Positions 6,790 through 57,238 of a stretch of 64,000 nucleotides of DNA are shown here, piece by piece (the stretch's first letter is position 1; every line of letters begins with the position of its first letter). The stretch covers positions 422-64,421 of IMG/VR virus record IMGVR_UViG_2509276021_000001, one strand, 5' to 3'. Origin of the DNA: a virus. A program made the position numbers and the translations under genes. The notes below the pieces were generated by a model, which made no database searches, was not told the DNA's origin, and was given only the letters and a program-made list of their open reading frames with translations.

Positions 6790-6792
6790 CTA

Positions 6793-42808: not shown

Positions 42809-42851
42809 GACCTTCAAGTGATGCTTGGCTTCCCACAAACCAGAGGCTGAA

Positions 42852-43208: not shown

Positions 43209-43318
43209 GGTGATGCGGAAACCGATCCCGAAAAGTTTTCGGCGGAACCGGCCATCGCCCATTTAGGTACACGACTCCACGGCGCTTGCCATCAAATCTG
43301 AGTCCGATCTTCAAGAAA

Positions 43319-43412
43319 GGGGGGGCGCGTATTTTGCTCTCACTGCGAACGAAGGCCCCGGACGGTGGCGCCCCCCCACCGCTCCAGACATTCGACCGCC
43401 CCCCCCCCGGGG
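43319..43412. other. Probable cos region
   Basis: G/C homopolymer tracts (minus strand GGGGGGGGGGCGGTCGAATGTCTGGAG) just downstream of the HNH gene, the usual cos location in HNH/P27-terminase phages; exact cut site not determined. Confidence 0.5.
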
Positions 43413-43558: not shown

Positions 43559-43888
43559 TCATGACTTGCTCCTATGCCAAGGGTGGCGAGGGTCGAGGGG
43601 CGAGCCGTCCACGGCGCAGCCCTGCACCATCAGCTTGCCGCTTCGTCGGCGAGCTCCGCCACGCTGCTCTTTTACCTGCCGGTCATGATGGCCGCAGAGT
43701 GTGCGCGTGTTGCCGATCACATCTAGTGCCGTGGGATGGTCTACATTTGGACGGGTGACGACGTGGTCACAGACAAGGCGGTCAGTGCGACCACAGCCAG
43801 GCACAACGCAACGCCAGCCATCGCGCTCATGGGTGGCGCGCTTGAGCGCCTTCCAGTGCGGAGAATCGTAGTAGCGATTCCGGGACAT
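43559..43888 (-). CDS. Packaging-associated HNH endonuclease
   Basis: Y....WKALK...RDGWRC..PGC, DHV, NTRTLCGHHD, G.PLDPRHPW. Confidence 0.9.
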   Translation of the reverse strand: MSRNRYYDSPHWKALKRATHERDGWRCVVPGCGRTDRLVCDHVVTRPNVDHPTALDVIGNTRTLCGHHDRQVKEQRGGARRRSGKLMVQGCAVDGSPLDPRHPWHRSKS

Positions 43889-44055
43889 TGATCATCACCA
43901 ACTTGTGATATGCGCGAAACGCACATGGATTCGCTTTAGGATTCACACTTGGCGTGCCGAACCACAACTGACAAACACTCAGCCACTTGCGTTCGAACCA
44001 CATGCGCGCATAGTGCGCAGCAGGCAGCACCGCTTTTTTTGGTGAGAGGTGCGCC

Positions 44056-44178: not shown

Positions 44179-44240
44179 AAAGGCGGCCAACCCGGAAGGG
44201 CGACCGCCTGTCTTTGGACGCAAATCAAGCATCCGCATCC

Positions 44241-44269
44241 AAATGACTCGTTTTGCGCTCGCCTGTCAA
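44241..44269 (-). promoter_or_regulatory. Candidate late promoter
   Basis: Minus strand TTGACA-N17-TCATTT pointing toward HNH and terminase; weak -10. Confidence 0.4.
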
Positions 44270-44415
44270 CAGGACTGCCATCCGCTGGCCTCGCTTCCCC
44301 ACGCCTCGCGAATCTCAATCTATGAACCTGATTGGAGAAGGGAGAAGGGCCTTAAAGGCCCTCTCCATCAGAGATATAAAATAAAAATCCGCGCGCGCAC
44401 GCGTGAGGCTGCGCC

Positions 44416-44555
44416 AATTTTCCGCGCTTTTTCCGCCGATCTTCCGCAGGCCGGTTTCCACATCCCTTGTGCGGCTTGCAACCATGAAGGTAACGCGGCG
44501 GATTTTCCGCAGTTCTTCCGCAGATTTTCCGCATTCCTTCCGCGAAGCGTCCGCG
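44416..44555. repeat. Eight 11-bp phased direct repeats (core TTCCGC) in two blocks
   Basis: TTCCGC at 44420, 44431, 44442, 44505, 44516, 44527, 44538 and GTCCGC at 44549. Confidence 0.85.
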
Positions 44556-44854
44556 CGAGCGCTCTTTATATTTGGGCCGATTTCAACCGCTGGTCCGACC
44601 GGCAAAAAATATTTTCGAATGGCGGGATTTCGGGCAGGAAAATGCGCGCTGAGACGGTCGGAAACGATGCCAGCGGCGACGAATTCCGAATCAATTGACG
44701 CTGGCGACCGCGCGCCAAAACCGAAATAAACGCGGTTTCGCATCTACCGAACAGTCAAAACGAAAATTAATGCGCTTTCAAATCAAAGCGTTAGCGTTTT
44801 GACGTCTGACATCTTGCAAAACCGTATTGTAAAACGAAATGAAATCGATATTCT

Positions 44855-45464
44855 CTCAATTACCGAAGCGAAAACGAAATCACTTCGGGATTGAGCGGCG
44901 ATTTTATTGCCTCTCAGCGTTCTTTGAAAAGCTGGCGAAGGTCCGATCATCGGCCCCAAGGTTTAGGCGACAACCTCGCGAAAGCGGGCAAAGCTTCGAT
45001 TGTAAGGCGGACGGTAGGGGCGAGCATATCAGCGGAATAGGGCGACCCAATGCGCAAAGCATTACCGGCATGACAAAGCCGGGTTTGGGGAAGGACGCGC
45101 GGCAAGCGGGAGGGAAACAAGCCCCTCATGCGGACATCAAATGACTTGCCTCTGTGAAGGTTCCGACCGAAGCGACCCTGATGCGAAGCGAAAGCCGAGT
45201 GTGTCAGATCATCGTTAGGCGGCGGGAAGATAGCAGGCAACCCAGATAACCGCGTCCGCAGACTGGGCAAGAGCTGCACCCCTCAACCGCTAACAGGCCT
45301 GGGTTCCCCTAGCACAAGATCACAACGGAAAATCTGAAGGGCAAGCAACACCTTGCCCCTCATTCCACATGCGAGGCAAGCGCCGCCGACTGGCTGGCGC
45401 TTTCCCGGCATTTGGCCGTCAACCCGCCCCTGCGCGAGGGGCACTCAATCAGGAGAATACGACA
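44855..45464 (+). ncRNA. Candidate large structured leader RNA
   Basis: About 600 nt without a credible ORF; at least 15 stems found by eye, nested long-range pairings and many GNRA-type loops. Confidence 0.5.
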
Positions 45465-46064
45465 ATGGCACAGTTCGCAATCATCACCGGCAAGGCACTC
45501 AAGAACGCAATCGCCGGCCGCGGCCAGCAGATCGCCACCTTCACCCAGCGCGAGCACCAGCTCGCCGTCTCCGCGCTCGCCCACCTCGGCGAACACAACG
45601 ACGTTATCTATGTCCAGGCGCTCTATGACATGAGCCCGGCTAACTACCAGCGCGGCCTGCGCCTGTGGTTCCTCGAATTCGGCAAGTGCACGTTCAAGGC
45701 CAACGAGACCGGCAAGGGCGGCGCGTTCATCTATGCCAAGTCCAAGGCCAGCGACATCGAGGGCGCGATGAAGGTCGCCCCGGCCAACTTCGAGAAGGAA
45801 GGCAAGGAGTCGACCACGGAAGCCAAGGCGTTCAGCGTGACCGAATATCTCGCCAAGGTCGTCAAGAAGCTGACCGACGAAGGCGCCGACGTGCGTGTGA
45901 TCCGTGCCATCGAAGGTGCGCAGAAGGTCGCCGCTGGCCCGGTCGTGGTCGTCCGCAACCAGAAGCCCCTGCCGGCAGCCGCCGAAAAGGCTGCAGCGCC
46001 GAAGCGCGCCGCCAAGAAGGCCGACCCGATGCAGGCACCGGCAGCAAACGCCGTCGCCGCCTAA
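45465..46064 (+). CDS. First gene of the plus-strand operon; 199-aa hypothetical with Ala/Lys tail
   Basis: AGGAGA RBS, ATG 45465, extreme optimal-codon bias. Confidence 0.85.
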   Translation: MAQFAIITGKALKNAIAGRGQQIATFTQREHQLAVSALAHLGEHNDVIYVQALYDMSPANYQRGLRLWFLEFGKCTFKANETGKGGAFIYAKSKASDIEGAMKVAPANFEKEGKESTTEAKAFSVTEYLAKVVKKLTDEGADVRVIRAIEGAQKVAAGPVVVVRNQKPLPAAAEKAAAPKRAAKKADPMQAPAANAVAA

Positions 46065-46120
46065 CCCCGCGAGGCATCGGCCCGGTTCGCCGGGCCATCC
46101 TCCCAACATAGGGATTTCGA

Positions 46121-46357
46121 ATGGCAATCGCCTTTGATACACTCGGCTATGCGAAACGCCTGCGCGAAGCAGGCGTTAATCAGAAGACGGCGGAAGCTCA
46201 CGCGGAAGCCGCGCGGGATTTCATCATGGCCGAGCTCGTCACGAAAACGGATCTTGCGGCAGCGCTCGACACTCTCACGCTCCGGCTGACCACCCGCCTT
46301 GGCGGAATCATGGTCGCGGGTGTCGGCGCGCTGGCGCTGATCATCAAGCTGACCTAA
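46121..46357 (+). CDS. DUF1640/CCDC90-like coiled-coil membrane protein
   Basis: FDTLGYAKRLREAG...AEA, LVTKTDL, C-terminal TM. Confidence 0.8.
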   Translation: MAIAFDTLGYAKRLREAGVNQKTAEAHAEAARDFIMAELVTKTDLAAALDTLTLRLTTRLGGIMVAGVGALALIIKLT

Positions 46358-46383
46358 CCACCCACCACAATCCAGACGCTGCA

Positions 46384-46409
46384 AGCCCGGCCATCGTGCC
46401 GGGCTTTTT
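46384..46409 (+). terminator. Intrinsic terminator
   Basis: AGCCCGGC-CATCGT-GCCGGGCT-TTTT. Confidence 0.8.
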
Positions 46410-46437
46410 GCGTTTCCAGCCATAAGGAACCGGCTCA

Positions 46438-47319
46438 ATGAACATGATTTATGCCCCGAATACGGCTCGCTTCGACCACACCGCGCGCGCCATGACCGAA
46501 GACGAGATGCGCCGTGTCGCGCCTTCAATCTTCGCGGTCGATGCCCACGAAAGCCGGTCGGAGCGGTTTCAGCCAATCCCCACGATCGACGTGCTTCGTG
46601 GGCTTTTGCGCGAAGGCTTCATGCCGGTAGGCGCTCGCCAGGCTCGCACCCGCGACGAAGGCCGCAAGGATTTCACCAAGCACATGATCAGGATGCGCCG
46701 CCTCGACGACGGCAAGGATTACACCGTCGGCGATACGGTTTTCGAGATCATCCTGAAAAACGCCAATGACGGAACCGCCGCCTATGATCTTATGGCCGGC
46801 CTCTTCCGCATCGTGTGCAAAAATTCGCTGGTCAGTCAGACCGGCACCTTGGACAGCCTGAAAGTGCGCCACAGCGGCACGCCTGAATCAGTACAGAGCA
46901 AGGTGATCGAGGGCACATACGAAGTCTTGCGAAACTCGGAGGCCGCGCTTGCTGCGCCCTCCGATTGGAGCCGGATCCAGCTCGACAAAGACGAGAAGAT
47001 GATCATCGCCGAGGCGGCGCATGTGCTGCGCTTCGACGATCAGGATAGCAACCTCGCCCAAGCGATCGATCCTTCGCGGTTCCTCACCACGAAGCGCGTG
47101 GCCGACCGATCCAATGACCTTTGGACACAGTTCAATGTGGTCCAGGAAAACATCATTCGCGGCGGCTTGCACGGCACCACCCGTGACGATCAGGGCCGCC
47201 GCCGCAACGTTTCCACGCGCGCCGTCAAAGGTATCGACCAAGACGTCAAGCTCAACAAAGCGCTGTGGCTGGTGGCCAGCCGTATGGCCGAACTCAAAGG
47301 CGTCAAGGCCGACGCCTGA
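46438..47319 (+). CDS. DUF932 (YfjQ/YafZ-like) protein
   Basis: APSIFA...HESRSERF..IPTIDVL, FTKHMIRMR, NANDGT.AY.LMAGLFRIVC.N, LW..FNVVQEN.IRGG motifs. Confidence 0.9.
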   Translation: MNMIYAPNTARFDHTARAMTEDEMRRVAPSIFAVDAHESRSERFQPIPTIDVLRGLLREGFMPVGARQARTRDEGRKDFTKHMIRMRRLDDGKDYTVGDTVFEIILKNANDGTAAYDLMAGLFRIVCKNSLVSQTGTLDSLKVRHSGTPESVQSKVIEGTYEVLRNSEAALAAPSDWSRIQLDKDEKMIIAEAAHVLRFDDQDSNLAQAIDPSRFLTTKRVADRSNDLWTQFNVVQENIIRGGLHGTTRDDQGRRRNVSTRAVKGIDQDVKLNKALWLVASRMAELKGVKADA

Positions 47320-47330
47320 ACCTCGCACGT

Positions 47331-47360
47331 AGCCCGGCCTCGAGCCGGGCTTTTGCTTTT
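47331..47360 (+). terminator. Intrinsic terminator
   Basis: AGCCCGGC-CTCGA-GCCGGGCT-TTTGCTTTT; stem identical to that at 46384. Confidence 0.8.
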
Positions 47361-47381
47361 CATCCCATTGGAGAAACGGCA

Positions 47382-47567
47382 ATGCCAAGTCAGCATTCCA
47401 GCCGCATGCGCTTGCCAGCTGATTGGGAAACAGCCCGCCAGCGCCAGCAGCGCCAAGCCGCCGATGAACTGGCGGCATATCTCGCCCGTGCAGCCCTGCT
47501 GCGCGCCCGCATCGCCACCGCAAGAATTCTAATCTCCGAGCCGGTCACCCCTCCATCCGGCCGGTGA
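47382..47567 (+). CDS. 61-aa helical hypothetical protein
   Basis: GGAGA RBS before ATG 47382. Confidence 0.5.
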   Translation: MPSQHSSRMRLPADWETARQRQQRQAADELAAYLARAALLRARIATARILISEPVTPPSGR

Positions 47568-47659
47568 GCGCAAGCAAGTCCCCCATGTCGCTTGCGCGGC
47601 CGCACGCTCCTGCCCTGGCGTGCGGCCTTCCGGCGACATGAGCCCTGAGAGGAATCCCA

Positions 47660-47758
47660 ATGTTGAGTTTCAAGGATTCGCTCGCCTTCGTGGCGATCTG
47701 CGTTTTCGTCACCACCGTTTCAATCTGGGGGTCCGTCATCGCGGCCCTCATCCACTAA
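47660..47758 (+). CDS. 32-aa hydrophobic peptide (absent from the ORF track)
   Basis: GAGAGGA RBS; MLSFKDSLAFVAICVFVTTVSIWGSVIAALIH. Confidence 0.6.
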   Translation: MLSFKDSLAFVAICVFVTTVSIWGSVIAALIH

Positions 47759-47774
47759 GCGAGGATATTTAAAC

Positions 47775-48098
47775 ATGATCACCAGAGAACGCGCCGCCAG
47801 CGTAGACAATTTTGTTCGCCAGTTCGCCACGGGTCGCGAGCATCAAGGCGCCGACAAGATCGCCGCCGAGATCATCGGCAGCATCCTGCATTGGGTTATG
47901 CGCAATGCTGAAATGGTCGGCGAGGATGGCCGAAAGCCTGCCCTGGGCGTCGCCCGGGTCGGCCTTTCTTCGTTCATTAGCGACGTGCACCGCATCGAGG
48001 GCGACCCAAAGGCTCCTGAGACCTACACCCTCATAACAGTCCGGACCGAAGAAGGCCTTTGGGTGTCCGAAACCGGCCATGAGGAGATGGTGGAGTAA
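47775..48098 (+). CDS. Hypothetical protein
   Basis: GAGGA RBS, phage-like codon usage. Confidence 0.7.
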   Translation: MITRERAASVDNFVRQFATGREHQGADKIAAEIIGSILHWVMRNAEMVGEDGRKPALGVARVGLSSFISDVHRIEGDPKAPETYTLITVRTEEGLWVSETGHEEMVE

Positions 48099-48127
48099 AT
48101 TCAGTGATAAGGTGGTAGAAGTCAGAA

Positions 48128-49066
48128 TTAGTTATTGGACCAATCCTTCTGCGTAAGCGCAACGTTTTGCACACCGGGCAAGCTCCAGAATACCGTCTCA
48201 TAATCTTTCTGGTCAAAGAGCCACTGCCCGTAACGATCATACGAGGTTGAACTCCCGATGACCTCCAAACTAATCGCAGGACGAGCCTTATCGCCAAGTT
48301 TCTTGTAGTCGGTCTCTGGGATTATGATCCAAATGGTGGCACGGGGGCTGCCGAAAGAGCAAGAGGTAGCACCACACGTATTGAGGCGAAACCCCCTAGA
48401 CTGCAGGTGCTCTTTGATAAATGCCGGGAACCTTCCCTCCGCCCGTATTCGCGGAAGCATCTCGGGGGGAACTTCCATCGTGATTGTCCAACGATAGCCA
48501 TCCCTCTGCGAGAAGATATCGTTTTTGCCGCCGAACGCTGGGTATGCGTTAACAGACCAAATGTCCCGTTTGGTTTCTTGCCAAAGTGCAGTCGATAGTT
48601 TGTTCCATCTGGTCGCGTCGGAGGTGCTCGTGCTTAGAATCACGTATGTTATGCTCATCATGCTTTGAATGCAGCGCACCTGGATATCGAATTCGCCGTC
48701 TGAATAATTCGCGACGGAATCGCGAACGTTGGACATGTTCAGGGATTCGGTTTCAGTGTGACCGACGTCATAGGGAACCTCCTCCCAATCTTTGATCAGC
48801 TTGAAATTCTTGTTTGCTAACCACGACTTCATGTGTCCGGCGCATGCTTCTGAACTGAGGAACGGCAACGGAGCCCATGCCGTTTGAATAACCTCTTCCG
48901 TCGCGTACCAATTTGCAATGCGGTGGGTCCCTAATCCTAAGAAATATACGGCTGTGGCGGCAGCAACACCGACGACAATTCGGAAAATGGTATGCTTTAA
49001 GAGGAGACGAAAATTTGTGAAATATTTCCACATTATTGGAGGTTCCGGTTCAGAAGAATCCATCAT
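48128..49066 (-). CDS. Membrane-anchored, probably periplasmic, hypothetical protein (moron)
   Basis: N-terminal TM, four Cys, visibly lower GC; antisense to the flanking operon. Confidence 0.7.
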   Translation of the reverse strand: MMDSSEPEPPIMWKYFTNFRLLLKHTIFRIVVGVAAATAVYFLGLGTHRIANWYATEEVIQTAWAPLPFLSSEACAGHMKSWLANKNFKLIKDWEEVPYDVGHTETESLNMSNVRDSVANYSDGEFDIQVRCIQSMMSITYVILSTSTSDATRWNKLSTALWQETKRDIWSVNAYPAFGGKNDIFSQRDGYRWTITMEVPPEMLPRIRAEGRFPAFIKEHLQSRGFRLNTCGATSCSFGSPRATIWIIIPETDYKKLGDKARPAISLEVIGSSTSYDRYGQWLFDQKDYETVFWSLPGVQNVALTQKDWSNN

Positions 49067-49100
49067 ATTGGGAACTAAGGTCAGCGTGCAACGCCCAAGG

Positions 49101-49718
49101 TCAGTGGTATTGGCACTGTCCCATGAAAAGCTTCACCGGCCCCCCGCTGCGATCCATCAGTTGGTTTCCGTCGAGCCTGTAATCTGAACCTTGCTCACCG
49201 CCCCATTCGTATATGTACCTCTCGCCCGATTTCCCAGCCATTAGCCTGTCCGGGCTGATCCTCACAACGATCGCGTCGAATTGCTTGCTTCCGCGTCGAA
49301 TATCGATTTTGCGACCGTCTGAGAATGAGCACTGAACGATGATCGGTAGTTTAGGAAAATCGCTGGCCAGCTCTGCCTTCTCCGCGATCTCAGCGGCAGC
49401 AACCCTTTTTTTCTGCAGTACCGCGAGCTCCTGCTGAAAGCAGTCCTGGATCGCTGCGAAATCGTACTCACTTGCTACAGCACTCCTGCAGGCTTGATAT
49501 GCCGCTTCGAGCTCGACATCGCCCCTTGGTGGGCGCAGCGATTGCAGGGCATGACGTTGCAGACCGATGCAATCATCCTGGCCCGGCCAGTCGTCGGGAT
49601 TGCGCTGCTCGCATAGCGTGGAGATCTGACGATCTACAGTATCTCGGTCCCACGCATTCGCGTGGCCGGAGGTGGTGGCAATCAAGGCAAGAGCGATTAA
49701 GGGTAGCAATCCGCGCAT
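49101..49718 (-). CDS. Exported Cys-containing hypothetical protein (moron)
   Basis: Start moved to MRGLLP; signal peptide ending HANA; helical Cys-paired domain plus a beta domain. Confidence 0.7.
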   Translation of the reverse strand: MRGLLPLIALALIATTSGHANAWDRDTVDRQISTLCEQRNPDDWPGQDDCIGLQRHALQSLRPPRGDVELEAAYQACRSAVASEYDFAAIQDCFQQELAVLQKKRVAAAEIAEKAELASDFPKLPIIVQCSFSDGRKIDIRRGSKQFDAIVVRISPDRLMAGKSGERYIYEWGGEQGSDYRLDGNQLMDRSGGPVKLFMGQCQYH

Positions 49719-49851
49719 GTTGATTCCGCTAAACTCGATGTTGAGAGCCCAATATGCCAGCTTGGGAGTAGTGGCAACGGCAATGCCGGGAAGTTCAATG
49801 GCCAAACCTAAATTGCGAATGGCACGGAATTATACTTCCTATCAGAAACAA

Positions 49852-50748
49852 TCAGAAAATTGTCGAGAAGATCGACTTCACTCCCGATACGACGAGGCTG
49901 GTGACAATGCCGCCCAACAGAAGCCTGTGACGCGTTGCGCTGTCCTTGTTTTCTTCCAAAACATTTACCGGAAAGGCCCATTTCAGATACCCGAATAGCG
50001 CGCGGTAGGTGATCAGGCTTAAGATCAAGCCATAGATATAAAAGGCAATGCGAAAGCTTGAATGGGGGCTGGTAGGTGGCAGTAGATAGTCACAGTAGAC
50101 GGTCACCCAATAGAGGGCATAGGGGAATGCAACGAACCACAGCCCGACATCGTAGGCGAATTTCCAATGAATGAAGCTGTCCCATTTCTTCTTCGAAAGT
50201 ATTTTGTTTGTTACGATCCTTTGTATTGCCCTGAAAAAAGTCACATCGTCGGAATGGATTTCCATGCGGCTATTATTAACGGTTGGCTCCGAAAGCACGG
50301 CGCTTGCGTCGAACAACGGCGGTTTATCGAAGCTCATCCATATGGAGAACCGGTTTCGAGGTTCGTTGTCATTTGCGTTGCGCCTAAAGGCGGTTGTGTT
50401 CGTGAAGAAAACGGTTCGGATAGGGAACGGCAAGTCCTTAGAATCAAAGATGCTCTCTGTCTCGCCATAGGCTGTTTCGCCATCAACGCCCATTACCGAC
50501 ACAGTCAAGCGGAACGCGTCGCCCTTTAAGAACGCGACTCTTGTCGACCATTCTTCATCGGAGAGATCCTTGGGCTTGACCAAAGCGTTTACTAACGGCT
50601 CGCCCGCCTTGCGATTCAGGGCAGAGAGCTCGCGATATGCTGCTTTAATTTGCGGCAGGCTCAGATGGCACCCGCGAATTTCAATGACATCCTCATACCA
50701 CTGAAGGTCAGAGGTCGTTTTCTCTTTGGCTAATTCATCATCTGGCAT
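49852..50748 (-). CDS. Protein with soluble N-terminal domain and C-terminal TM helices (moron)
   Basis: GAGGA RBS; two to three hydrophobic helices after residue 195; lower GC. Confidence 0.75.
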   Translation of the reverse strand: MPDDELAKEKTTSDLQWYEDVIEIRGCHLSLPQIKAAYRELSALNRKAGEPLVNALVKPKDLSDEEWSTRVAFLKGDAFRLTVSVMGVDGETAYGETESIFDSKDLPFPIRTVFFTNTTAFRRNANDNEPRNRFSIWMSFDKPPLFDASAVLSEPTVNNSRMEIHSDDVTFFRAIQRIVTNKILSKKKWDSFIHWKFAYDVGLWFVAFPYALYWVTVYCDYLLPPTSPHSSFRIAFYIYGLILSLITYRALFGYLKWAFPVNVLEENKDSATRHRLLLGGIVTSLVVSGVKSIFSTIF

Positions 50749-50855
50749 GTTGGACCGTCCTCACATCGCGCGGTGAAGTTGTAGCTGATTCGCAGATAGC
50801 TATTCGTCCGCGACATTTTTGATCCCCTGAAAAGAACTATGAAGAGAGCGATCGA

Positions 50856-51161
50856 ATGAGAACAAGTTTCCCATGGTTTCGGCATGGCCGGATCCTCGTC
50901 GGCGCGAAGAACGGCGTACCCGATCTCAAGCGGTTGGTGGCCACGTTCGTCAACGAAGACGACGCAAAGACGATCTCTGATCTCCTCGCCATGCGCGACG
51001 AGCTGCTCACCACGCTTCGTGTTGATCTACAATTGCTCGAAGACGAGCTGAAGAATCTGCGCTTCTCCGGCGTGCCTCAATACATCGAACCGGTGGAGAC
51101 GGCCGTAAAAAGGACGATAAAGGCGATCGCTCTGGCTGAAGGCTGGGGCTCCGCCCCTTAA
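50856..51161 (+). CDS. Hypothetical protein with coiled coil
   Basis: GAGAG RBS; VATFVNEDDA...LLAMRDELL. Confidence 0.6.
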   Translation: MRTSFPWFRHGRILVGAKNGVPDLKRLVATFVNEDDAKTISDLLAMRDELLTTLRVDLQLLEDELKNLRFSGVPQYIEPVETAVKRTIKAIALAEGWGSAP

Positions 51162-51619
51162 AGTCGTCTGACTGGATCCAACACGAAATTCCTCTGAACC
51201 CCGTACGTTTCAGCCAATCGATATCCCATGAGGCGGTACCATCGCTCGATCTCAGGATGCACACCATAACACATCGAGACAACGGGGAGATTATCGAACT
51301 CAGTCTGCATCTTGCGCATAAATTTTCGGCCGAACCGCACAGAAGGGACGGCGGGGTCGAAAAATTTTGCTTTGCCGACGAAGAACGTTGCCAAGACCGG
51401 CACCCCGACGTCGATCTCGTCCCTCTGGAAACCAATCAGCCCAATTGGCTCACCATGAAAATCTAACGCCCAGAGATTCCCCAACTTCCAGATGCCGCGG
51501 AACGCCTCTTTCGCTTCCGCCAAGGTGTAATCGGCCAGATCAATCTCCTCGATGCACCGCTGCGCGAGATTGCCAAACACTGTTCTCAAATCCTGCGGTT
51601 TGGCTTTCCGAACCTGCAT
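51158..51619 (-). CDS. GNAT-fold protein (T7 gp13/DUF2833-like pattern)
   Basis: VRKAKPQD, GEPIGLIG, HPEIERWYRLMGY (acetyl-CoA-site helix); start moved to 51619. Confidence 0.6.
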   Translation of the reverse strand: MQVRKAKPQDLRTVFGNLAQRCIEEIDLADYTLAEAKEAFRGIWKLGNLWALDFHGEPIGLIGFQRDEIDVGVPVLATFFVGKAKFFDPAVPSVRFGRKFMRKMQTEFDNLPVVSMCYGVHPEIERWYRLMGYRLAETYGVQRNFVLDPVRRL

Positions 51620-51705
51620 CAGAGTCCCCTGTTCACTCAGATTGCTTAGCAGCGCTGCGATAGCTCTACCAGCGCTCAATCGCGGCAGTTGCGAAACGAG
51701 GTAAC

Positions 51706-52494
51706 GTGACCCGCCAAAATATCGTGAATATCTTGAAGCTCTTTCAGTCGTGCCGATATCGGCACGACCTTTATACCGTTTTCTCCGATTGGTGCGAGTG
51801 TGCCGCAATATCCATCAGCAGTTCGATGGACGTCAGGCAACGGGAGAAGCGCGAAGCCCGTTATATGAAAATCATTGGCCGCTATGAGCGCGAGGTGGTC
51901 GAGACGTTCCCGAAGATCCTCGGCGAAGTGGTCATGGCGCTTGAGACAGCGCCCCAAGACGTCCTCGGCAGCACGTTCCACGAGCTGGAGCTGCACAACA
52001 AGGCGCGCGGACAGTTCTTCACGCCGTACGCCCTGTGCCAGACGATGGCACTTATGACCATCAGTGGCGATGATCTGCATAAGAACATCGAAGAGCGCGG
52101 CTACATCACGGCGCACGAGCCGGCCGTCGGCGCCGGCGCCACCATCATCGCGCTCGCTGAAGCGCTGAAGGATGCCGGCATAAACTACCAGCAGCATCTG
52201 CATGTGAAGGCGGTCGATATCGACCCACGTGCCGTGCACATGGCCTATGTCCAGTTCTCGCTGTTGCATATCCCAGCACAAGCGATCGTCGGCGATACGC
52301 TCCGGCTCGAATTCCGCGAGGACTGGTTCACTCCGGCCCACGTCATGGGGTTCTGGTCGGGGCGGCTCGCCGCCGATCGGCGCCGGCAGCAGATGCCCAT
52401 CGAGGTGCCAGTCGCCGAAGCTCCACCACCCGAGATCGCCAAGCCTCCTCCCCGATCGGCCATGGGCCTACCTCTTTTCGATTTCGGTCAGTGA
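51706..52494 (+). CDS. HsdM-like (N-6 DNA methylase family) protein lacking motif IV
   Basis: GQFFTP, HEPAVGAG (motif I), VDID, GDTL present; no NPPY/F-like motif follows. Confidence 0.8.
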   Translation: MTRQNIVNILKLFQSCRYRHDLYTVFSDWCECAAISISSSMDVRQREKREARYMKIIGRYEREVVETFPKILGEVVMALETAPQDVLGSTFHELELHNKARGQFFTPYALCQTMALMTISGDDLHKNIEERGYITAHEPAVGAGATIIALAEALKDAGINYQQHLHVKAVDIDPRAVHMAYVQFSLLHIPAQAIVGDTLRLEFREDWFTPAHVMGFWSGRLAADRRRQQMPIEVPVAEAPPPEIAKPPPRSAMGLPLFDFGQ

Positions 52495-52503
52495 CCGATC
52501 CAC

Positions 52504-52526
52504 CCGCCGCCGACAGGCGGTTTTTT
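52504..52526 (+). terminator. Intrinsic terminator
   Basis: CCGCC-GCCGACA-GGCGG-TTTTTT. Confidence 0.7.
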
Positions 52527-52549
52527 ATGCCAACCTCAGGAGAACCCGC

Positions 52550-53734
52550 ATGCAATCCGATAACATCGTCCAGCTTTTCACCTCTGGAAACCCTTCCGCG
52601 CTCATCGAGCGCACCGAGTTGACCGAATGCACCGCGCTGCTCGCCAAGCTGTGCAGCGGCAAGCAATCCATGCCCATCCTCAACCATATCCGCTTCGCCT
52701 CCGAACAGGGCGGCGTGGCGCTGACGGCGACGAACCTCGATATCCAGGCGGAGACGTCGATTGCCGCCGACGTCGATGCCCGCTTCTCGGCCGCCCTGCC
52801 CGCCGCCGCGCTGCTCAAGCTGATGAAGAAAGGCACGACCAGCACGACCACCATCCTTGAGCTGCTCGCGGACGAAGCTGATCCGGATGCCGATCGCATC
52901 GTCGCCAGCAAGTGCGCGATCCAGCTTGCCAGCACCAGGTTCGTTCTCGATGCCATGCCGACCGACGACTTTCCCGACCTGATCCGCCACGCTGAAGGCG
53001 ATAAGGTGCATCGCTTCTCGATCGGCAGTGCGATCCTCTGGAATGCCATCGATGGGACAGTCGACGCGGCCTCGACAGAACCGACGCGCTACTACCTGAA
53101 CGGCGTCTACATCCATACCCACAACAGTCACCTCCGCTTCGTCAGCACGGACGGCCACCGGCTCTATATCCAGGAGACCAATATCCAGACTGGAAAGCAC
53201 GAGATCGGCGCCATCCTACCGACCGAGGCGGCGAAGTTCGTTGCGAACCTGCTCGACGGCTACGCCGGCGCCGATCCGGTCAAGGTCGAAATCTCGAAGG
53301 GCGTTGCCGTGTTCATCTTCCGCGACGTCGCCGTCACCGCAAAGCTGATCGACGGTACGTTTCCGGATTACCAGCGCGTCATCCCTGCTGAGCCAGACAA
53401 GACGGCAACGATCGCCGGCGGTGATCTGTCGGCGCGCGTTGCCTCCCTCGTCGAATGCACGGGAGCGACAACCGTCCACCTGAAATTCGGTGGCGAGCAG
53501 CTCGTCATCAACGCAAGCGGCGCGTCTGGCGCCGGCACGACGGGAATGGATTGCGACTATCGGGGCGAGGAGCTGGAGATCGCATTCGACGCCGGCTACC
53601 TGCGCTCGGCAATCGAAGCGGCCAGCCCCGACGGCCGCAACATGCGGATCCGCATGGCCGACGCTCTCTCGCCCGCCATCGTGACCGGCTCGATCGGCGG
53701 ATGGTCCGGCGTCCTCATGCCGACCAAAGCCTAG
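52550..53734 (+). CDS. dnaN: Phage-encoded DNA polymerase III beta sliding clamp
   Basis: MPILNHI, LTATNLDI, DFP, TRYYLNGVY, VSTDGHRL, KLIDGTFPDYQRVIP, IAFDAGYL, VLMP; start ATG 52550 after AGGAG. Confidence 0.93.
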   Translation: MQSDNIVQLFTSGNPSALIERTELTECTALLAKLCSGKQSMPILNHIRFASEQGGVALTATNLDIQAETSIAADVDARFSAALPAAALLKLMKKGTTSTTTILELLADEADPDADRIVASKCAIQLASTRFVLDAMPTDDFPDLIRHAEGDKVHRFSIGSAILWNAIDGTVDAASTEPTRYYLNGVYIHTHNSHLRFVSTDGHRLYIQETNIQTGKHEIGAILPTEAAKFVANLLDGYAGADPVKVEISKGVAVFIFRDVAVTAKLIDGTFPDYQRVIPAEPDKTATIAGGDLSARVASLVECTGATTVHLKFGGEQLVINASGASGAGTTGMDCDYRGEELEIAFDAGYLRSAIEAASPDGRNMRIRMADALSPAIVTGSIGGWSGVLMPTKA

Positions 53735-53801
53735 TTCATCCGACCAACCCAACCACGGGCCGCCTCGCGCGGCCCTATTCTGTTCAAGAAGGAGAAGCTC
53801 T

Positions 53802-54410
53802 GTGAAGCCCAAGGATCCAGCATCCGCCGACGTCCGGGTCGGCATGAATATCCGCCAGCTGCGCCTGCGCAGCGGAATGAGCCAGGAAGCGCTTGCCGAT
53901 AAGATCGGCGTGACCTTCCAGCAGGTGCAGAAATACGAGAAGGGCGCGAACCGCGTCAGCGCCAGCCGCCTCGCGGCTGTCTTCGACGCTCCGATCGAAA
54001 CCCTATTCTCTGGCGCGACCGCCGATCTCGATAGCCCGGCCGATGCCCTGCCCGCAATGAGCCGAGATGCGCTGTCTGTCGCCCAGGACTTTGACGCGAT
54101 CGAGAACCCCGCCGTGCGGCTGACAATCCGCGGCTTGGTCAAATCGCTCAGCAAGCAGCCGCCCATGCAGCCTGATAGCGCCCGCCGCCGGCGGCGCTCG
54201 AGCCGCCCTTCCTTTCACCGCTACCCCGCTACCCAACTCAAGAGGTTTTACCGACATGGAACAACTGTCGCTCACTGCCGATCGGCTCGTGCTGGATCCG
54301 AACAACGCCCGCAAGATGCGGGACAAGGACTCGCTGGTTTCCCTCAAGGCGTCCATCCTCGCCCACGGCATCATCCAGCCGATCACCGTTCGGCCGCCCG
54401 CCGCGGCTGA
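53802..54410 (+). CDS. XRE-family HTH regulator, probably degenerate
   Basis: GMSQEALADKIGVTFQQVQKYEKGANRVSASRL; about 3 residues look deleted after SRL; the ORF runs 155 nt into parB past an out-of-frame TGATAG. Confidence 0.75.
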   Translation: MKPKDPASADVRVGMNIRQLRLRSGMSQEALADKIGVTFQQVQKYEKGANRVSASRLAAVFDAPIETLFSGATADLDSPADALPAMSRDALSVAQDFDAIENPAVRLTIRGLVKSLSKQPPMQPDSARRRRRSSRPSFHRYPATQLKRFYRHGTTVAHCRSARAGSEQRPQDAGQGLAGFPQGVHPRPRHHPADHRSAARRG

Positions 54411-56019
54411 TCGGGATCTGCAGGGCGATCGCTACCAGGTCTTTGCCGGCGGCCGACGCCTGTCTGCCGTGACGGAGCTGATCTTCGAAGGAAAGCTGCC
54501 GGCTGACTACGAGCTGCCGGCACTGGTCAAGGAGGTCGACGACAACAGCGCCGACGAGATGAGCTTGGCCGAGAACATCTTGCGCCGCGAGATGCGCCCA
54601 GTCGACGAGTTCAAGGCGTTCTCTCGCCTTGCTGACGAAGGGGTTGCGGCGGACGATATCGCCCTTCGCTTCGGCCAGAGCCTGCGTTTCGTGCAGGGGC
54701 GCATGGCTCTCGGCCGTCTTCACCCGGTCCTGCTGGAAATGCTCGACCTGAATGAGATCGATTTCAGGACGGCCAGCTCCTACACGCTGGAGCCGGATCC
54801 AGAACGTCAGCTCGAGATTTACAACAATCTTCCCGGCTGGCAGAAAACCTCCCAGTCCCACATCAAGGAAGCGATCGCCGGTACTGGCACCAAATCCAAC
54901 GGTGGGTTGGCCCAGTTCATCGGCGACACCCGCTATATCCTCGCTGGCGGCAAGGTCACCCACGATCTATTCGAGGATCACAGCTTTTGGATTAGCACAG
55001 ACATCGTCGAGAAGCTGAGGGCCGAGAGAATCGAAGAAACCAAACAGGAGCTTCTGGCTGAAGGCTGGGCATGGGTGAAGACGGCTGAAGAAGTGGGCAA
55101 TGACGTCTGGTATATGGAAACGCTTCGTCCGGAGGAGACGGGGTTGCCTGTCGAGCAAAAGGAGCGAATGGAGGAGGTGCAGGCGCAGATCGGGGAGTTC
55201 AATGAAGTCGACATCGACGAGCTTCCAGAAGATGAGCAGGAACGCTATCGCCTGCTCGAGGCGGAGTTGGCCGAGTTCACCAAGCTGGCAAAAGGCCAGC
55301 ACTCCGCTGAGCAGCGCGCCGGCTCTGGTGTCATCATCCGGACCGATCGAGATTACAGCCTCGATTACGGCAGGGTGTCGCCACGCCGCTCGAATTCCTC
55401 AAGCAGCTCCTCAGCTAAACCCGAAAAGGATCCTCTCGCTATCTCGGCGCCGACGTTGAGCGAACTCGGAAAGACGGCAACGACCGCGCTGGCCCAGGCG
55501 GTGGAAGCGCAGCCTGACAAGGCTCTCGCCATGTTGGCCGCGCTCCTCGAGCTAGGCCCCACATCGCCATGGCAGCAACACCGACCAGGACGCATCAGTG
55601 TTTCCGCGCCGGGGGTCACGGCCGGCGGCTACCAAGGCGCGACAGCGAAGCGCTCCTTCAGCGCAGCATTCGAGGAATACTCAGGGATGAAGCCGGTCGA
55701 TCTGAAGAAGGCGCTCGCCCGGCTCGTCGCTGGCGCTGTCGATATCAGTCAGGAATGGCTCTCATCGAACGCTGAAATGCGCAAGGCAACACTCGAAACC
55801 TTCGGTGTAGACCCCACCCCGCATTTTGACGTCGACAGCTTCTTCACCGCAGCCCGCAAGCCGATCATCGTGGCGGCCTATAAGGAGATGACCGGCACCG
55901 ACCTGAAGGACGGCAAGAAAGGCGACATGGTGGCGATCGCCGTCGACGCCGCGAAGAAGACGGGGTGGCTGCCCGAATATCTGCGCACGGCAATATACAC
56001 GCCGAAGAAGTCGAAATGA
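54256..56019 (+). CDS. Long ParB/RepB/Spo0J-like protein (mobile-element type)
   Basis: NNARK, SILAHGIIQPITV, AGGRRL, SLAENILR..MRPVDEFKAF; acidic coiled coil and extended C-terminus; no parA nearby. Confidence 0.9.
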   Translation: MEQLSLTADRLVLDPNNARKMRDKDSLVSLKASILAHGIIQPITVRPPAAADRDLQGDRYQVFAGGRRLSAVTELIFEGKLPADYELPALVKEVDDNSADEMSLAENILRREMRPVDEFKAFSRLADEGVAADDIALRFGQSLRFVQGRMALGRLHPVLLEMLDLNEIDFRTASSYTLEPDPERQLEIYNNLPGWQKTSQSHIKEAIAGTGTKSNGGLAQFIGDTRYILAGGKVTHDLFEDHSFWISTDIVEKLRAERIEETKQELLAEGWAWVKTAEEVGNDVWYMETLRPEETGLPVEQKERMEEVQAQIGEFNEVDIDELPEDEQERYRLLEAELAEFTKLAKGQHSAEQRAGSGVIIRTDRDYSLDYGRVSPRRSNSSSSSSAKPEKDPLAISAPTLSELGKTATTALAQAVEAQPDKALAMLAALLELGPTSPWQQHRPGRISVSAPGVTAGGYQGATAKRSFSAAFEEYSGMKPVDLKKALARLVAGAVDISQEWLSSNAEMRKATLETFGVDPTPHFDVDSFFTAARKPIIVAAYKEMTGTDLKDGKKGDMVAIAVDAAKKTGWLPEYLRTAIYTPKKSK

Positions 56020-56088
56020 GATGCGGCGCTTCGGCGCCGCTCTACTCCGAATCGTATATAGACAGGGACATAAACCGCCACCACAGAG

Positions 56089-56541
56089 GTGCCGACAGTG
56101 GCCGACGAAGAAAGCAATGATTTCCGCTCCTGGATGAAGTCCATGGGCTACAACGCGAAGCAGGTGTCTGTCGCTGGTGAGGTTCTCGGGATGTCACCGT
56201 CCCTCGCTGGACATTCCAGCCGTGGGCTTCGTGAGCTGACAAAGACCGAACGGCTGGCCATGGCAGCAGCTACGACGGGCATTCCGGAATGGTCTCCGGC
56301 CAACGAGCCTGAATTGATGGCTGTGCGAATGCTCTACACCATCTTAACTGACGAAATTCAACGGGTTGCCGTTGGATCCGATCCTGAGATGGAGGCCCTT
56401 CGAGCCATCCGAGCCGTCATTCGCTCTGAGGCTTATCGCCTTGCGACGGAGTCCCGGCTTGAGCCGTCTCCAGATCCGGAGACTGACAAGGCGATTCTGG
56501 ATGTTCTGCGCGCGGCGATGCGGGGTACCAGCGGGCATTAA
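56089..56541 (+). CDS. HTH-containing hypothetical protein
   Basis: DFRSWMKSMGY...AGEVLGMS...SRG N-terminal HTH-like segment; AGAGG RBS. Confidence 0.65.
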   Translation: MPTVADEESNDFRSWMKSMGYNAKQVSVAGEVLGMSPSLAGHSSRGLRELTKTERLAMAAATTGIPEWSPANEPELMAVRMLYTILTDEIQRVAVGSDPEMEALRAIRAVIRSEAYRLATESRLEPSPDPETDKAILDVLRAAMRGTSGH

Positions 56542-57238
56542 AATCCCGCATCGTCATCATGTGGAAGCGCACCGACAGATCGTCGAGCGCTTTCAGCAGC
56601 TTCAGGATGACACGGTCCCGCCGATCGGCGCGGACCTTCTCCCAAAGCCAGACGTCGTGAAAGACGACGTCTTCGACCATAGAGAACTCCGATTGCTCCA
56701 AGCCCGGCGTCTTATTGCTGCCGCGCAGGTAGCTGAGCCAGCGGATGCAGTCCATCTTATATTCGCCCGGCAGCCGGCCGGGCACGCCCCCACCGCTTGA
56801 ACCTTCCAGGTTCGCCGCCTTCAGACCCGAGATCTGTGCGCCCTCCCAGATGCTGCGCAGCCGCTGGCCGGCATTCAGCCGGCGATGGGCCGCGCCTGGT
56901 GCATCGTTCTTGCCCTGCAGCCATCCCTTGCTGAACAGGTATTCGAGCGGCGCGCTGTTGGTGATGATAGGCGTGGCGCGCTCCCGGCCGATGCTGGCGA
57001 TCTCCGCCTTGCGGCCATCCCGCCCGGCCATGGCGACGGGTGGCGAGACGGAATGCCTCGAGCCGATCTTCCATTCCTCCCATCCGTACGCCTTCGCCAT
57101 AGCCGCGTAGAATACAGCCCGCCGATGCTCGAAGTCGTCATCCCGGCCGTAGTGCGCGACCAGCGGCAGGACGCGCTTGCGGATCTGCGCCTTCTCCAGG
57201 CGCTTCGCTTCCAGCCGTTCCTTGAAGCTCTTCGTCAC
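56417..57238 (-). CDS. Putative late-gene transcription regulator
   Basis: Last gene of the minus-strand early/replication run; RLNAGQRLRSIW...GSSGGG motif; function inferred from position only. Confidence 0.5.
   Translation of the reverse strand: MTKSFKERLEAKRLEKAQIRKRVLPLVAHYGRDDDFEHRRAVFYAAMAKAYGWEEWKIGSRHSVSPPVAMAGRDGRKAEIASIGRERATPIITNSAPLEYLFSKGWLQGKNDAPGAAHRRLNAGQRLRSIWEGAQISGLKAANLEGSSGGGVPGRLPGEYKMDCIRWLSYLRGSNKTPGLEQSEFSMVEDVVFHDVWLWEKVRADRRDRVILKLLKALDDLSVRFHMMTMRDFNARWYPASPRAEHPESPCQSPDLETAQAGTPSQGDKPQSE

What the first reader, a model, noticed from the sequence alone, without database searches (positions are those of the whole stretch)
45465..56541. Plasmid-leading-region-like operon at the predicted first-injected end of the phage
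Seen: an 11-kb plus-strand run, opposite to all other core genes, starts about 2 kb from the presumed cos on the HNH side and reads inward. It carries DUF932, an HsdM-like protein, beta-clamp, XRE, a long ParB-like protein and many tiny ORFs. Known: DUF932, methylase-like and ParB-like genes are typical of conjugative leading regions rich in anti-defence genes, and lambda ejects the end packaged last (here the HNH side) first. Inference: an immediate-early anti-defence and takeover module analogous to T7 class I or T5 pre-early genes, in a temperate phage.
Basis: partly seen in the sequence, partly recalled or inferred. Interest (0 to 1): 0.7.

Follow-up and report, generated by a model that had tools for sequence, protein, structure and literature searches.

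The report
Plasmid leading-region genes in a prophage
A Rhizobium prophage carries, next to its predicted packaging end, a conserved gene block with true relatives of three proteins that conjugative plasmids keep in their first-entering region, but the block is several transcription units with an embedded defence-gene slot, not one operon, and no anti-defence role is shown.

Summary
The named genes are at the stated coordinates. The "plasmid leading-region-like" label holds by homology, not only by domain names.

- **Homology.** The 587-aa ParB-like protein matches the F/IncI leading-region protein YfjB/HerB end to end (hhalign 99.9%, all four domains, CTP-binding residues kept). The DUF932 protein and a methylase-like protein that lacks the catalytic motif also have plasmid relatives. 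All three families lie together beside oriT in a Klebsiella IncF plasmid.
- **Position.** A conserved non-coding block beside the HNH gene marks the likely cos, about 2.1 kb before the module. Three other phage lineages start a related block beside their packaging genes, reading away from them.
- **What fails.** It is not an 11-kb plus-strand operon. About 3.3 kb is minus-strand cargo, and three strong terminators (plus a weaker one) split the rest. The main cargo slot holds a complete Septu defence system in a relative. No known anti-defence gene was found. HerB's published role is host reprogramming. Expression timing and the virion ends are untested.
- **Verdict.** This is a new phage variant of a known kind of establishment gene set.

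This scan has already reported HerB-like clamps in prophages on other DNA.

The parts
43292..43404 (.). Conserved non-coding block between HNH and the variable cassette upstream of terS; candidate cos site
   Evidence: 91-92% identical in two relatives, while the rest of the HNH-terS interval is not conserved. In phage VarioGold the annotated cosR lies next to an HNH gene. The physical ends were not mapped.
43559..43888 (-). HNH endonuclease, same strand as terS and terL
   Evidence: CxxC...DH...N...CxxH motifs in the translation; PHROG HNH families at 2e-9; Pfam PF01844 did not detect it.
44406..44555 (+). Two arrays (3 and 5 copies) of an 11-bp repeat, core ATTTTCCGC; one inverted copy at 45325-45336
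   Evidence: Conserved in L021, L027 and G001; replaced by other repeats in G002. The binding protein is unknown.
44855..45464 (+). Conserved untranslated leader of about 600 nt before the first module gene; a possible promoter (TTGTAA-16 nt-TATTCT) lies just upstream at about 44.83-44.86 kb
   Evidence: More conserved than the adjacent coding DNA in three relatives; recognisable in G002. RNAalifold predicts 120 pairs, 41 of them with a compensatory change in at least one of 5 sequences. No Rfam family reached its gathering score anywhere in 43200-57000. The promoter is read by eye (8 of 12 consensus positions) and was not reported by the scan.
45465..46064 (+). p199, first gene of the module; phage-only family of unknown function
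   Evidence: phrog_1448 at 1.3e-18; start at 45465 from the public gene call and a conserved ribosome-binding site; 26 clusters, all Rhizobiaceae-type; Atlas neighbours are viral with no Pfam family. AF2 model pLDDT 70; weak, non-significant winged-helix-like Foldseek hits.
46121..46357 (+). p78, small conserved ORF
   Evidence: 96% identical in L021, 76% in L005 and in G002; phrog_17872 at 2e-5.
46383..46406 (+). Intrinsic terminator before DUF932
   Evidence: 9-bp stem with 7 GC pairs plus a T-run.
46438..47319 (+). DUF932 protein, a terminator-flanked cassette shared with plasmid leading regions
   Evidence: Pfam 2.9e-36. At least 5000 plasmid records match, 4319 of them conjugative. It lies next to oriT in IncF plasmids. 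It is absent from relative G001, which keeps the rest of the module. AF2 model pLDDT 83 has no solved-fold match. The tree mixes viral and plasmid rows.
47331..47351 (+). Intrinsic terminator after DUF932
   Evidence: 8-bp stem with 7 GC pairs plus a T-run.
47775..48098 (+). p107, conserved left border of the variable slot
   Evidence: 57-82% identical in L003, L004 and L067; no family hit.
48128..50748 (-). Three lower-GC minus-strand cargo genes (312, 234 and 298 aa) with a TM helix, a signal peptide and C-terminal TM helices; function unknown
   Evidence: GC 50-56% and codon-position bias fit the minus strand. They are called in the public annotation. No Pfam, PHROG or PADLOC hit. The 298-aa protein has 82 homologue clusters. 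The same slot holds Septu PtuA/PtuB in L067.
50856..51161 (+). p101, conserved right border of the variable slot
   Evidence: Conserved in L003, L004 and L067.
51158..51619 (-). 153-aa minus-strand ORF in a second variable slot
   Evidence: Called in the public annotation. Only a weak phrog_308 hit at 0.005; no Pfam or PADLOC hit. Relatives carry a HerA-like ATPase or a PAPS-reductase-like gene in this slot.
51706..52494 (+). Methyltransferase-like protein with motifs X, I, II and III but no NPPY/F catalytic motif
   Evidence: Pfam N6_Mtase covers only profile positions 22-116 of 311; phrog_5696 at 1e-72. The sequence and a nine-row family alignment show no motif IV. 2126 plasmid records match, 1480 of them conjugative. 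A relative lies in the pKP914 leading region and next to HerB-like genes in L073, L074, L077 and L085.
52506..52521 (+). Intrinsic terminator after the methylase-like gene
   Evidence: Stem plus TTTTTT.
52550..53734 (+). Phage-encoded DNA polymerase III beta sliding clamp (394 aa)
   Evidence: All three Pfam clamp domains; phrog_947 at 7e-55; start from the public call; conserved in L003, L004, L067 and L068.
53802..54410 (+). XRE-family HTH regulator; the ORF's tail overlaps the next gene and is probably shorter in reality
   Evidence: HTH_3 at 2e-11 over residues 17-60. In relatives the C-terminal match falls in another frame over the ParB-like start.
54256..56019 (+). HerB/YfjB-family ParB-like CTPase clamp (587 aa)
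   Evidence: ParB_N at 1.1e-13. hhalign against the IncI HerB orthologue: 99.9%, E 2.4e-36, profile columns 3-586 against residues 32-633 of 652. 2583 plasmid records match over at least 80% of its length. GGRR (R68) and E106 are invariant in its family. The N-terminal half matches Spo0J and Noc structures.
56098..56541 (+). p147, last gene of the module; overlaps the end of the convergent replication operon
   Evidence: 54-66% identical in relatives; no family hit.

Best explanation
The region is a conserved accessory module of a temperate HK97-like Rhizobium phage. Its core genes come from the gene pool that conjugative plasmids keep in their leading (first-entering) region.

Shown:
- The module holds a HerB/YfjB-type ParB-like CTP clamp, a DUF932 protein and a SAM-binding methylase-like protein without the catalytic motif. 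It also holds a phage beta-clamp, an XRE regulator and small phage-specific genes.
- It starts about 2 kb from the likely cos, on the HNH side. It lies behind a conserved 1.5-kb control region with 11-bp repeats and a structured leader of about 600 nt. It reads inward until it meets the replication operon head-on.
- It consists of several transcription units separated by terminators. It has two swap-in slots that carry prophage cargo on the other strand; one slot holds a Septu defence system in a relative.

Inferred:
- After DNA entry, and after induction, the module is transcribed from its own promoter, independently of the cI/cro switch.
- By analogy with F HerB, the clamp binds CTP, loads on DNA and changes transcription so that the cell accommodates the incoming element.
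- The beta-clamp supports replication.
- DUF932 and the methylase-like protein serve an unknown establishment or counter-defence role shared with plasmids.
For: Homology:
- The ParB-like protein matches HerB end to end, with the CTP-binding residues kept.
- DUF932 and the methylase-like family are abundant on conjugative plasmids.
- All three families lie within about 9 kb beside oriT in pKP914. A HerB-like gene and DUF932 lie about 3 kb apart on a Roseibium repABC plasmid.

Linkage in phages:
- DUF932 and a HerB-like gene are adjacent in L075.
- A HerB-like gene and a methylase-like gene are adjacent in L073, L074, L077 and L085.
- Clamp, XRE and HerB-like genes occur together in L068.

Topology:
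- The module lies beside the packaging genes and reads away from them in the window family, L075, L028 and G002.
- A candidate cos block is conserved.

Regulation:
- The cI/cro operators (TTGCGA-N3-TCGCGA) occur at 64.25-64.33 kb and 65.64-65.69 kb. They are not found upstream of the module beyond chance.
- The leader and the repeats are conserved.

Published function: HerB is made right after plasmid entry, binds the chromosome and reprograms transcription (PMC13370423).
Against: - No expression data exist; early timing is inferred.
- The virion ends are unmapped.
- Lambda-type ejection is fast and continuous (my own knowledge), so position at the entering end may matter little.
- In five other phage contigs the HerB-like gene reads toward HNH and terL, not inward.
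- DUF932 is dispensable: it is absent from relative G001.
- Strong terminators and antisense inserts argue against co-transcription.
- Of the three HerB HTH residues shown to matter, only the first is kept, so the DNA targets may differ.
- No known anti-defence family was detected.
Confidence: 0.5

Rival explanations
1. It is an ordinary accessory or 'nin-like' region between the replication and packaging modules. On this reading it is a mosaic of replication helpers (clamp, ParB-like DNA-binding protein), a regulator and morons. Its likeness to leading regions only reflects the common gene pool of mobile elements, and its position relative to the entering end has no functional meaning.
For: - Gene content varies between close relatives: DUF932 or the methylase-like gene can be missing, and the slots differ.
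- Terminators flank individual genes.
- HerB-like genes occur in other places and orientations in other phages: in the PL-type arm of VarioGold and reading toward HNH in five contigs.
- The DUF932 tree shows repeated moves between viral and plasmid contexts.
Against: - Three families that co-occur in plasmid leading regions also co-occur here and are pairwise linked in several phage lineages.
- The same divergent placement beside packaging genes recurs with unrelated terminases and replication genes.
- A dedicated, highly conserved control region and leader precede the module.
Confidence: 0.27
2. The ParB-like clamp acts in cis on the phage genome, like BisD of ICEclc or KorB of RK2. It would load at the 11-bp repeats (or another site) between the late operon and the module, then slide to activate or silence phage promoters. 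The module would then be a phage-internal regulatory hub, not a host-directed one.
For: - The repeat arrays and an inverted copy lie exactly between the divergent HNH/late genes and the module, and are conserved in close relatives.
- ParB-like CTP clamps regulate transcription on mobile elements (BisD, PMC12409273).
- The HTH recognition residues differ from those of F HerB.
Against: - The repeats are direct 11-bp units, not a parS-like palindrome.
- They stay the same although the clamp diverges to 62% identity.
- F HerB showed no enrichment on its own plasmid.
- A 12-bp palindrome, CGCCGATCGGCG, recurs but is not clearly above chance: 4 against 1.4 expected.
Confidence: 0.13
3. It is a plasmid-type maintenance or partition module (a ParB plus a repeat centromere) that lets the phage genome persist or segregate extrachromosomally.
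For: - A ParB_N protein and tandem repeats are present.
- DUF932 and ParB-like genes occur on repABC plasmids.
Against: - No ParA-type family was reported by the Pfam scans of the module's larger ORFs.
- The element is integrated, with a weak tyrosine-recombinase match near its right end and a cI/cro switch.
- The protein belongs to the HerB family, which does not segregate its plasmid (PMC13370423).
Confidence: 0.05
4. It is a prophage-expressed (lysogenic conversion) block. The module would be transcribed in the lysogen and would reprogram or protect the host together with the defence cargo.
For: - No cI operator was found upstream.
- Defence cargo lies inside it (Septu in L067).
- It has its own XRE regulator.
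Against: - The cargo lies on the opposite strand, with lower GC, and is evidently separate from the conserved plus-strand genes.
- A constitutively expressed extra beta-clamp and DNA clamp would probably be costly (inference).
Confidence: 0.05

Closest known systems
Leading region of IncF/IncI conjugative plasmids (ssb, yfjA, yfjB/herB, psiB, psiA, hok, methylases, DUF932, oriT)
   Same: - Three shared protein families: a HerB-type clamp, DUF932 and a truncated N6-methylase-like protein.
- The genes lie at the DNA end predicted to enter the new cell first.
- The content is mosaic and island-like.
   Different: - No oriT or relaxase, and no ssb, psiB, ardA or klcA were found among the ORFs scanned.
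- The DNA enters double-stranded, so single-strand promoters are irrelevant.
- The genes read away from the entering end, whereas plasmid leading genes read toward oriT.
- A beta-clamp, an XRE regulator and phage-only genes are added.
HerB (YfjB) of plasmid F, the ParB-like host expression reprogrammer (PMC13370423)
   Same: - End-to-end profile match over domains D1-D4.
- Box II arginine and Box III glutamate are kept.
- No partner ParA.
   Different: - 26-29% identity.
- 587 against 652 residues.
- Two of the three HTH contact residues differ.
- Encoded by an integrated temperate phage. The preprint found only three phage homologues, all in cyanophages.
BisD of ICEclc and KorB of RK2 (ParB-like CTP clamps that regulate promoters of their own element)
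   Same: A ParB-like CTPase on a mobile element, with possible loading sites close to divergent promoters.
   Different: Sequence kinship to BisD or KorB was not tested. No BisC-like partner was looked for. The repeats here are direct, not parS-like.
T7 class I genes and T5 pre-early genes
   Same: Predicted location at the first-entering end, oriented inward.
   Different: - No evidence of stepwise or transcription-driven DNA entry.
- No Ocr, A1 or A2 homologues were found.
- The phage is temperate.
- The module is split by terminators and antisense genes.
Prophage defence hotspots flanked by conserved genes (as in P2/P4-type and other phage hotspots)
   Same: The slot between p107 and p101 holds different low-GC cargo in each relative, including a complete Septu system.
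   Different: The slot lies inside the plus-strand module, not at an attachment site or next to the late genes.

Membership tests
HerB/YfjB family of ParB-like CTPase clamps | N-terminal ParB/Srx CTP-binding domain with the Box II GxxR arginine and the Box III glutamate | tested here: met
   ParB_N at 1.1e-13. GGRR with R68 aligned to HerB R94, and E106 aligned to E130; both are invariant in 21 family members.
HerB/YfjB family of ParB-like CTPase clamps | HTH DNA-binding domain D2 following D1 | tested here: met
   phmmer aligns residues 14-181 to Spo0J, including its HTH region; hhalign covers D2. Only the first of the HerB contact residues R168, R172 and K175 is kept.
HerB/YfjB family of ParB-like CTPase clamps | HerB-specific D3 and D4 (C-terminal dimerisation core), each at least 80% covered | tested here: met
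   hhalign 99.9%, 548 aligned columns reaching residue 633 of 652 in the IncI orthologue. tblastn covers residues 2-576 in 2583 plasmid records.
HerB/YfjB family of ParB-like CTPase clamps | CTP binding, nucleoid foci and transcription reprogramming right after entry | not testable with these tools
   Needs biochemistry, ChIP-seq and RNA-seq.
Conjugative-plasmid leading region | Lies next to oriT, on the side transferred first, with a relaxase system | tested here: not met
   The element is a prophage with terminase, portal, capsid and a cI/cro switch, plus a weak integrase-like match. No transfer genes were seen in the public gene calls.
Conjugative-plasmid leading region | Carries gene families enriched in leading regions | tested here: met
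   HerB-like, DUF932 and methylase-like families are present. ssb, psiB, ardA and klcA were not found among the ORFs scanned.
Conjugative-plasmid leading region | First DNA to enter the recipient | tested here: inconclusive
   Inferred from HNH/cos/terS synteny, a conserved block at 43292-43404 and lambda's known polarity. The virion ends were not mapped.
Single early operon (T7 class I / T5 pre-early type) | Uninterrupted co-oriented genes without internal terminators | tested here: not met
   Four minus-strand genes and terminators at 46383, 47331 and 52506.
Single early operon (T7 class I / T5 pre-early type) | Contains a known anti-restriction or host shut-off gene | tested here: not met
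   No such family in the Pfam, PHROG or PADLOC scans of the module ORFs.
Septu defence system (in relative L067 only) | Adjacent PtuA ATPase and PtuB HNH nuclease | tested here: met
   PtuA at 2e-124 and PtuB at 1.1e-84, adjacent on the minus strand in the p107-p101 slot of L067. The window's own three genes match no PADLOC model.

The most novel reading that the evidence does not exclude
Cos-type temperate phages of alphaproteobacteria have a true counterpart of the plasmid leading region. It would be a dedicated establishment module at the last-packaged, first-ejected end, built around a HerB-type CTP clamp, DUF932 and a catalytically dead methylase. It would be driven independently of the cI switch from a promoter followed by a structured RNA of about 600 nt. 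That RNA would let transcription run through the terminators that separate swappable cassettes.
Probability: 0.2. Interest if true: 0.8.

Novelty: new variant of a known kind. Interest (0 to 1): 0.55.

Why it matters
HerB was described only in July 2026 as a plasmid protein that eases establishment in a new host. Its authors found three phage homologues and called their meaning unclear.

Here a HerB-type clamp travels in temperate phages together with two more leading-region families, and lies beside the genome end that should enter first. If this holds, plasmids and phages share a toolkit for the first minutes in a new cell. DUF932 and the truncated methylase, both very common on resistance plasmids and both uncharacterised, could then be studied in a simple phage system.

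The embedded slot, which holds Septu in one relative, also marks three unknown membrane-associated genes as candidates for a new prophage-encoded defence or exclusion function.

Tried and rejected
- **DNA searches against isolated phages.** The megablast search gave no match, and the distant search found only short HTH-gene stretches.
- **Pfam HNH model PF01844.** It missed the HNH gene; PHROGs and the motifs found it.
- **DUF932 fold.** The AF2 model is good (pLDDT 83), but Foldseek found nothing at E <= 0.001 and VIA-align gave Z <= 6.6, within the noise range. Function stays unknown.
- **p199 fold.** The model is mediocre (pLDDT 70). Foldseek gave only non-significant winged-helix-like rows, and the Atlas gave only unnamed viral clusters.
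- **Methylase-like protein against solved structures.** No meaningful hit.
- **cI/cro operators upstream of the module.** None beyond chance.
- **A parS-like palindrome for the clamp.** No perfect palindrome with half-sites of 6 bases or more recurs. CGCCGATCGGCG occurs 4 times against 1.4 expected, which is not convincing.
- **Rfam.** Only three sub-threshold hits in the stretch searched, at 47.3, 47.6 and 52.7 kb; none in the leader.
- **Viral relatives of the 298-aa cargo protein.** None found.
- **Partition-module reading.** Rejected: no ParA-type family among the module ORFs scanned, the element is integrated, and the protein is HerB-type.

Full report
**What the window is.** The window is bases 422-64421 of a 76.7-kb provirus record. 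The same DNA lies in a 6.66-Mb scaffold of a public genome assembly.

Public gene calls with Pfam hits, my own scans and a codon-position profile give this map, in window coordinates:
- Host ABC-transporter genes lie at the left edge.
- A cargo zone follows, up to about 13 kb.
- Lysis, tail and head genes run on the minus strand up to terL (39232-41094) and terS (41072-41560).
- A small plus-strand cassette lies at 41675-43208.
- An HNH gene lies at 43559-43888 on the minus strand.
- 1.5 kb of non-coding DNA follows.
- The block in question lies at 45465-56541.
- A minus-strand early operon lies at 64248 to 56417. It encodes a cro-like protein, a GcrA-like protein, an MT-A70 methylase, a winged-helix protein and a 749-aa AAA_25 replication protein.
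- A plus-strand arm begins at 64341. It encodes an S24 cI-type repressor, YqaJ, RecT, an RNase_T exonuclease and a helicase. A weak tyrosine-recombinase match lies near the right end.

**The observation.** All the named genes are present:
- DUF932 (2.9e-36).
- An N6_Mtase-like protein.
- A complete three-domain beta-clamp, starting at 52550 in the public call.
- An XRE HTH protein.
- A 587-aa ParB_N protein.

The small ORFs p78, p107, p101 and p147 are conserved at 54-96% identity in related proviruses.

The run is not continuous, however. Three lower-GC genes on the minus strand fill 48128-50748, and a fourth lies at 51158-51619. Strong intrinsic terminators follow p78 (46383), DUF932 (47331) and the methylase-like gene (52506), and a weaker one follows the clamp. 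The block is therefore several transcription units, unless some antitermination device exists.

**Position relative to the genome end.**
- The 109-aa minus-strand ORF has the CxxC/DH/N/CxxH signature and matches PHROG HNH families.
- In HK97-like cos phages the HNH gene lies just before cos, with terS just after it. Phage VarioGold, with an annotated cosR next to its HNH gene, shows this.
- Between HNH and terS only one stretch, 43292-43404, is conserved (91-92%) in two relatives. The rest is variable cargo.
- I take that stretch as the candidate cos. The module's first start codon is then 2.1 kb away.
- That the HNH side is packaged last and ejected first follows from lambda's known polarity. 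This is my own knowledge and was not tested here.

**Is the layout conserved?**
- Two close relatives (L003/L027 and L004/L021) and a third (L067/L097) share the order HNH, non-coding region, p199, (DUF932), p107, slot, p101, slot, (methylase-like), clamp, XRE, ParB-like, p147. In all of them the block converges on the replication operon.
- More distant lineages repeat the topology with different neighbours:
  - In L075, terL and terS lie on one strand, and DUF932 followed directly by a HerB-like gene lie on the other.
  - In L028, HNH lies on one strand. A 255-aa gene, DUF932 and small ORFs lie on the other, converging on a PolA/primase operon.
  - In G002 (L096), the p199 homologue diverges across a 1.5-kb non-coding region from a different packaging module.
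- Against a universal rule, five contigs have an MT-A70 gene, a HerB-like gene, HNH and terL all on one strand.

**Kinship with plasmid leading regions.** This is the main result.

The ParB-like protein:
- It aligns to an IncFIA plasmid between ssb and psiB.
- It aligns over at least 80% of its length to 2583 plasmid records. Of the 5000 best-scoring plasmid records, 3963 are conjugative.
- In an IncI plasmid the match is the 652-aa gene between ssb/DUF905 and psiB.
- A 21-sequence profile of the phage family matches that protein at 99.9% probability (E 2.4e-36). The alignment spans profile columns 3-586 against residues 32-633.
- That gene is yfjB, renamed HerB in a July 2026 preprint (PMC13370423). 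HerB is a CTP-binding ParB-like clamp with a new dimerisation domain. It is made right after plasmid entry, binds the chromosome and reprograms transcription.
- The Box II arginine and the Box III glutamate are invariant in the phage family.
- The preprint found only three phage homologues, all in cyanophages. My tblastn search also picked up Synechococcus and Microcystis phages.
- A profile scan of viral contigs gave about twenty further full-length relatives, several of them beside terminase, portal and capsid genes.

The DUF932 protein:
- It matches at least 5000 plasmid records, 4319 of them conjugative.
- In IncF plasmids it is the gene next to the SLT gene and oriT.
- It is 66% identical to a gene on a Roseibium repABC plasmid, where it sits with a HerB-like gene, DUF3560 and a methyltransferase.

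The methylase-like protein:
- It has motifs X, I, II and III but no NPPY/F, and this holds across its family.
- It matches 2126 plasmid records, 1480 of them conjugative.

In Klebsiella plasmid pKP914 the order is DUF3560, methyltransferase, ssb, DUF905, HerB, psiB, psiA, small genes, this methylase-like gene, DUF932, DUF5983, SLT and traM. All three families therefore lie together in one leading region.

A DUF932 tree places the window's clade next to alphaproteobacterial plasmid-type rows. This node has moderate support and is not starred in the tree output. Well-supported branches force at least seven switches of the 'viral' label. The gene has evidently moved repeatedly between phage and plasmid contexts.

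**Control region.**
- The 1.5 kb before the module is more conserved than the neighbouring genes.
- It holds 3 + 5 copies of an 11-bp repeat with core ATTTTCCGC, plus an inverted copy 130 bp before the first start codon.
- It also holds a leader of about 600 nt that is recognisable even in G002.
- RNAalifold predicts 120 pairs for the leader, 41 with compensatory changes. Only five sequences were available.
- The cI/cro operators have the form TTGCGA-N3-TCGCGA. They occur at the switch and again before the recombination arm, but not before the module.
- I infer an independent promoter near 44.83-44.86 kb. It is read by eye and was not reported by the scan.

**Variable slots.**
- Between p107 and p101 every relative carries different low-GC genes, mostly on the minus strand.
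- In L067 these are PtuA (2e-124) and PtuB (1.1e-84), a complete Septu system.
- In L027 one of the slot genes is a DUF3885 protein.
- The window's three genes match nothing in Pfam, PHROGs or PADLOC. They do have membrane or export signals, and one belongs to a family of 82 clusters.
- The second slot holds a HerA-like ATPase or a PAPS-reductase-like gene in relatives.

**What remains unknown.**
- DUF932 gave a confident model with no solved-fold match.
- p199 gave only weak winged-helix-like hits.
- No known anti-defence family was found.
- One preprint reports mutations in a DUF932 gene of an integrated plasmid after phage exposure. This does not show an anti-defence role.

**Verdict.**
The leading-region kinship and the end-proximal, inward-reading placement hold. 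The single operon, the anti-defence function and the immediate-early timing are not shown.
- The best reading is a phage version of a plasmid-type establishment gene set built around a HerB-like clamp, with an embedded defence hotspot.
- Earlier notes of this scan report HerB-like clamps in prophages on other DNA. This case adds the three-family linkage and the recurrent position beside the packaging end.

Noticed in passing
window 48128-50748 (minus strand); L067:1872-3829: The slot between the conserved genes p107 and p101 is a cargo hotspot. Relative L067 carries a complete Septu system (PtuA/PtuB) there. The window carries three unknown genes with a TM helix, a signal peptide and C-terminal TM helices, which makes them candidates for a new defence or exclusion function.
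   Followed up: partly
window 44855-45464: A non-coding leader of about 600 nt before the module is conserved in five phage genomes, including a distant one (G002). RNAalifold predicts many compensatory pairs. No Rfam family matches it. It may control read-through of the downstream terminators.
   Followed up: partly
window 44406-44555 and 45325-45336: Arrays of 3 and 5 phased 11-bp repeats (ATTTTCCGC core), plus one inverted copy near the first start codon, are conserved in close relatives. The binding protein is unknown. p199, with a weak winged-helix-like model, and the XRE protein are candidates.
   Followed up: partly
window 51706-52494; L073, L074, L077, L085; plasmid L090:11815-12648: A family of methyltransferase-like proteins of about 250-280 aa keeps the SAM-binding motifs but lacks motif IV in all nine rows aligned. 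It is common on conjugative plasmids and often lies next to HerB-like genes in phages.
   Followed up: partly
window 41675-43208: The interval between the candidate cos and terS is a second variable slot. It measures 1.7 kb here, against 0.6 and 0.9 kb in two relatives. Here it holds a plus-strand cassette with DUF2158, DUF6953 and beta-flower proteins.
   Followed up: no
window 61071-61658 and 63027-63488: The early-right operon encodes an MT-A70 methylase and a GcrA-like protein. In five other phage contigs an MT-A70 gene lies just upstream of the HerB-like gene.
   Followed up: no
window 52371, 56619; G000 beyond the window at window-equivalent 69594 and 73055: The perfect 12-bp palindrome CGCCGATCGGCG recurs in the early regions. 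Inside the window it occurs 4 times (allowing one mismatch) against 1.4 expected, so the excess is not convincing.
   Followed up: partly
L021:15400-16698 and L067:4224-5522, 6265-7416: In the second slot, relatives carry a HerA-like ATPase (DUF87). In L067 a PAPS-reductase-like domain lies directly before the methylase-like gene, which recalls ParB-like/PAPS-reductase pairs such as IbrAB or DndBC.
   Followed up: no
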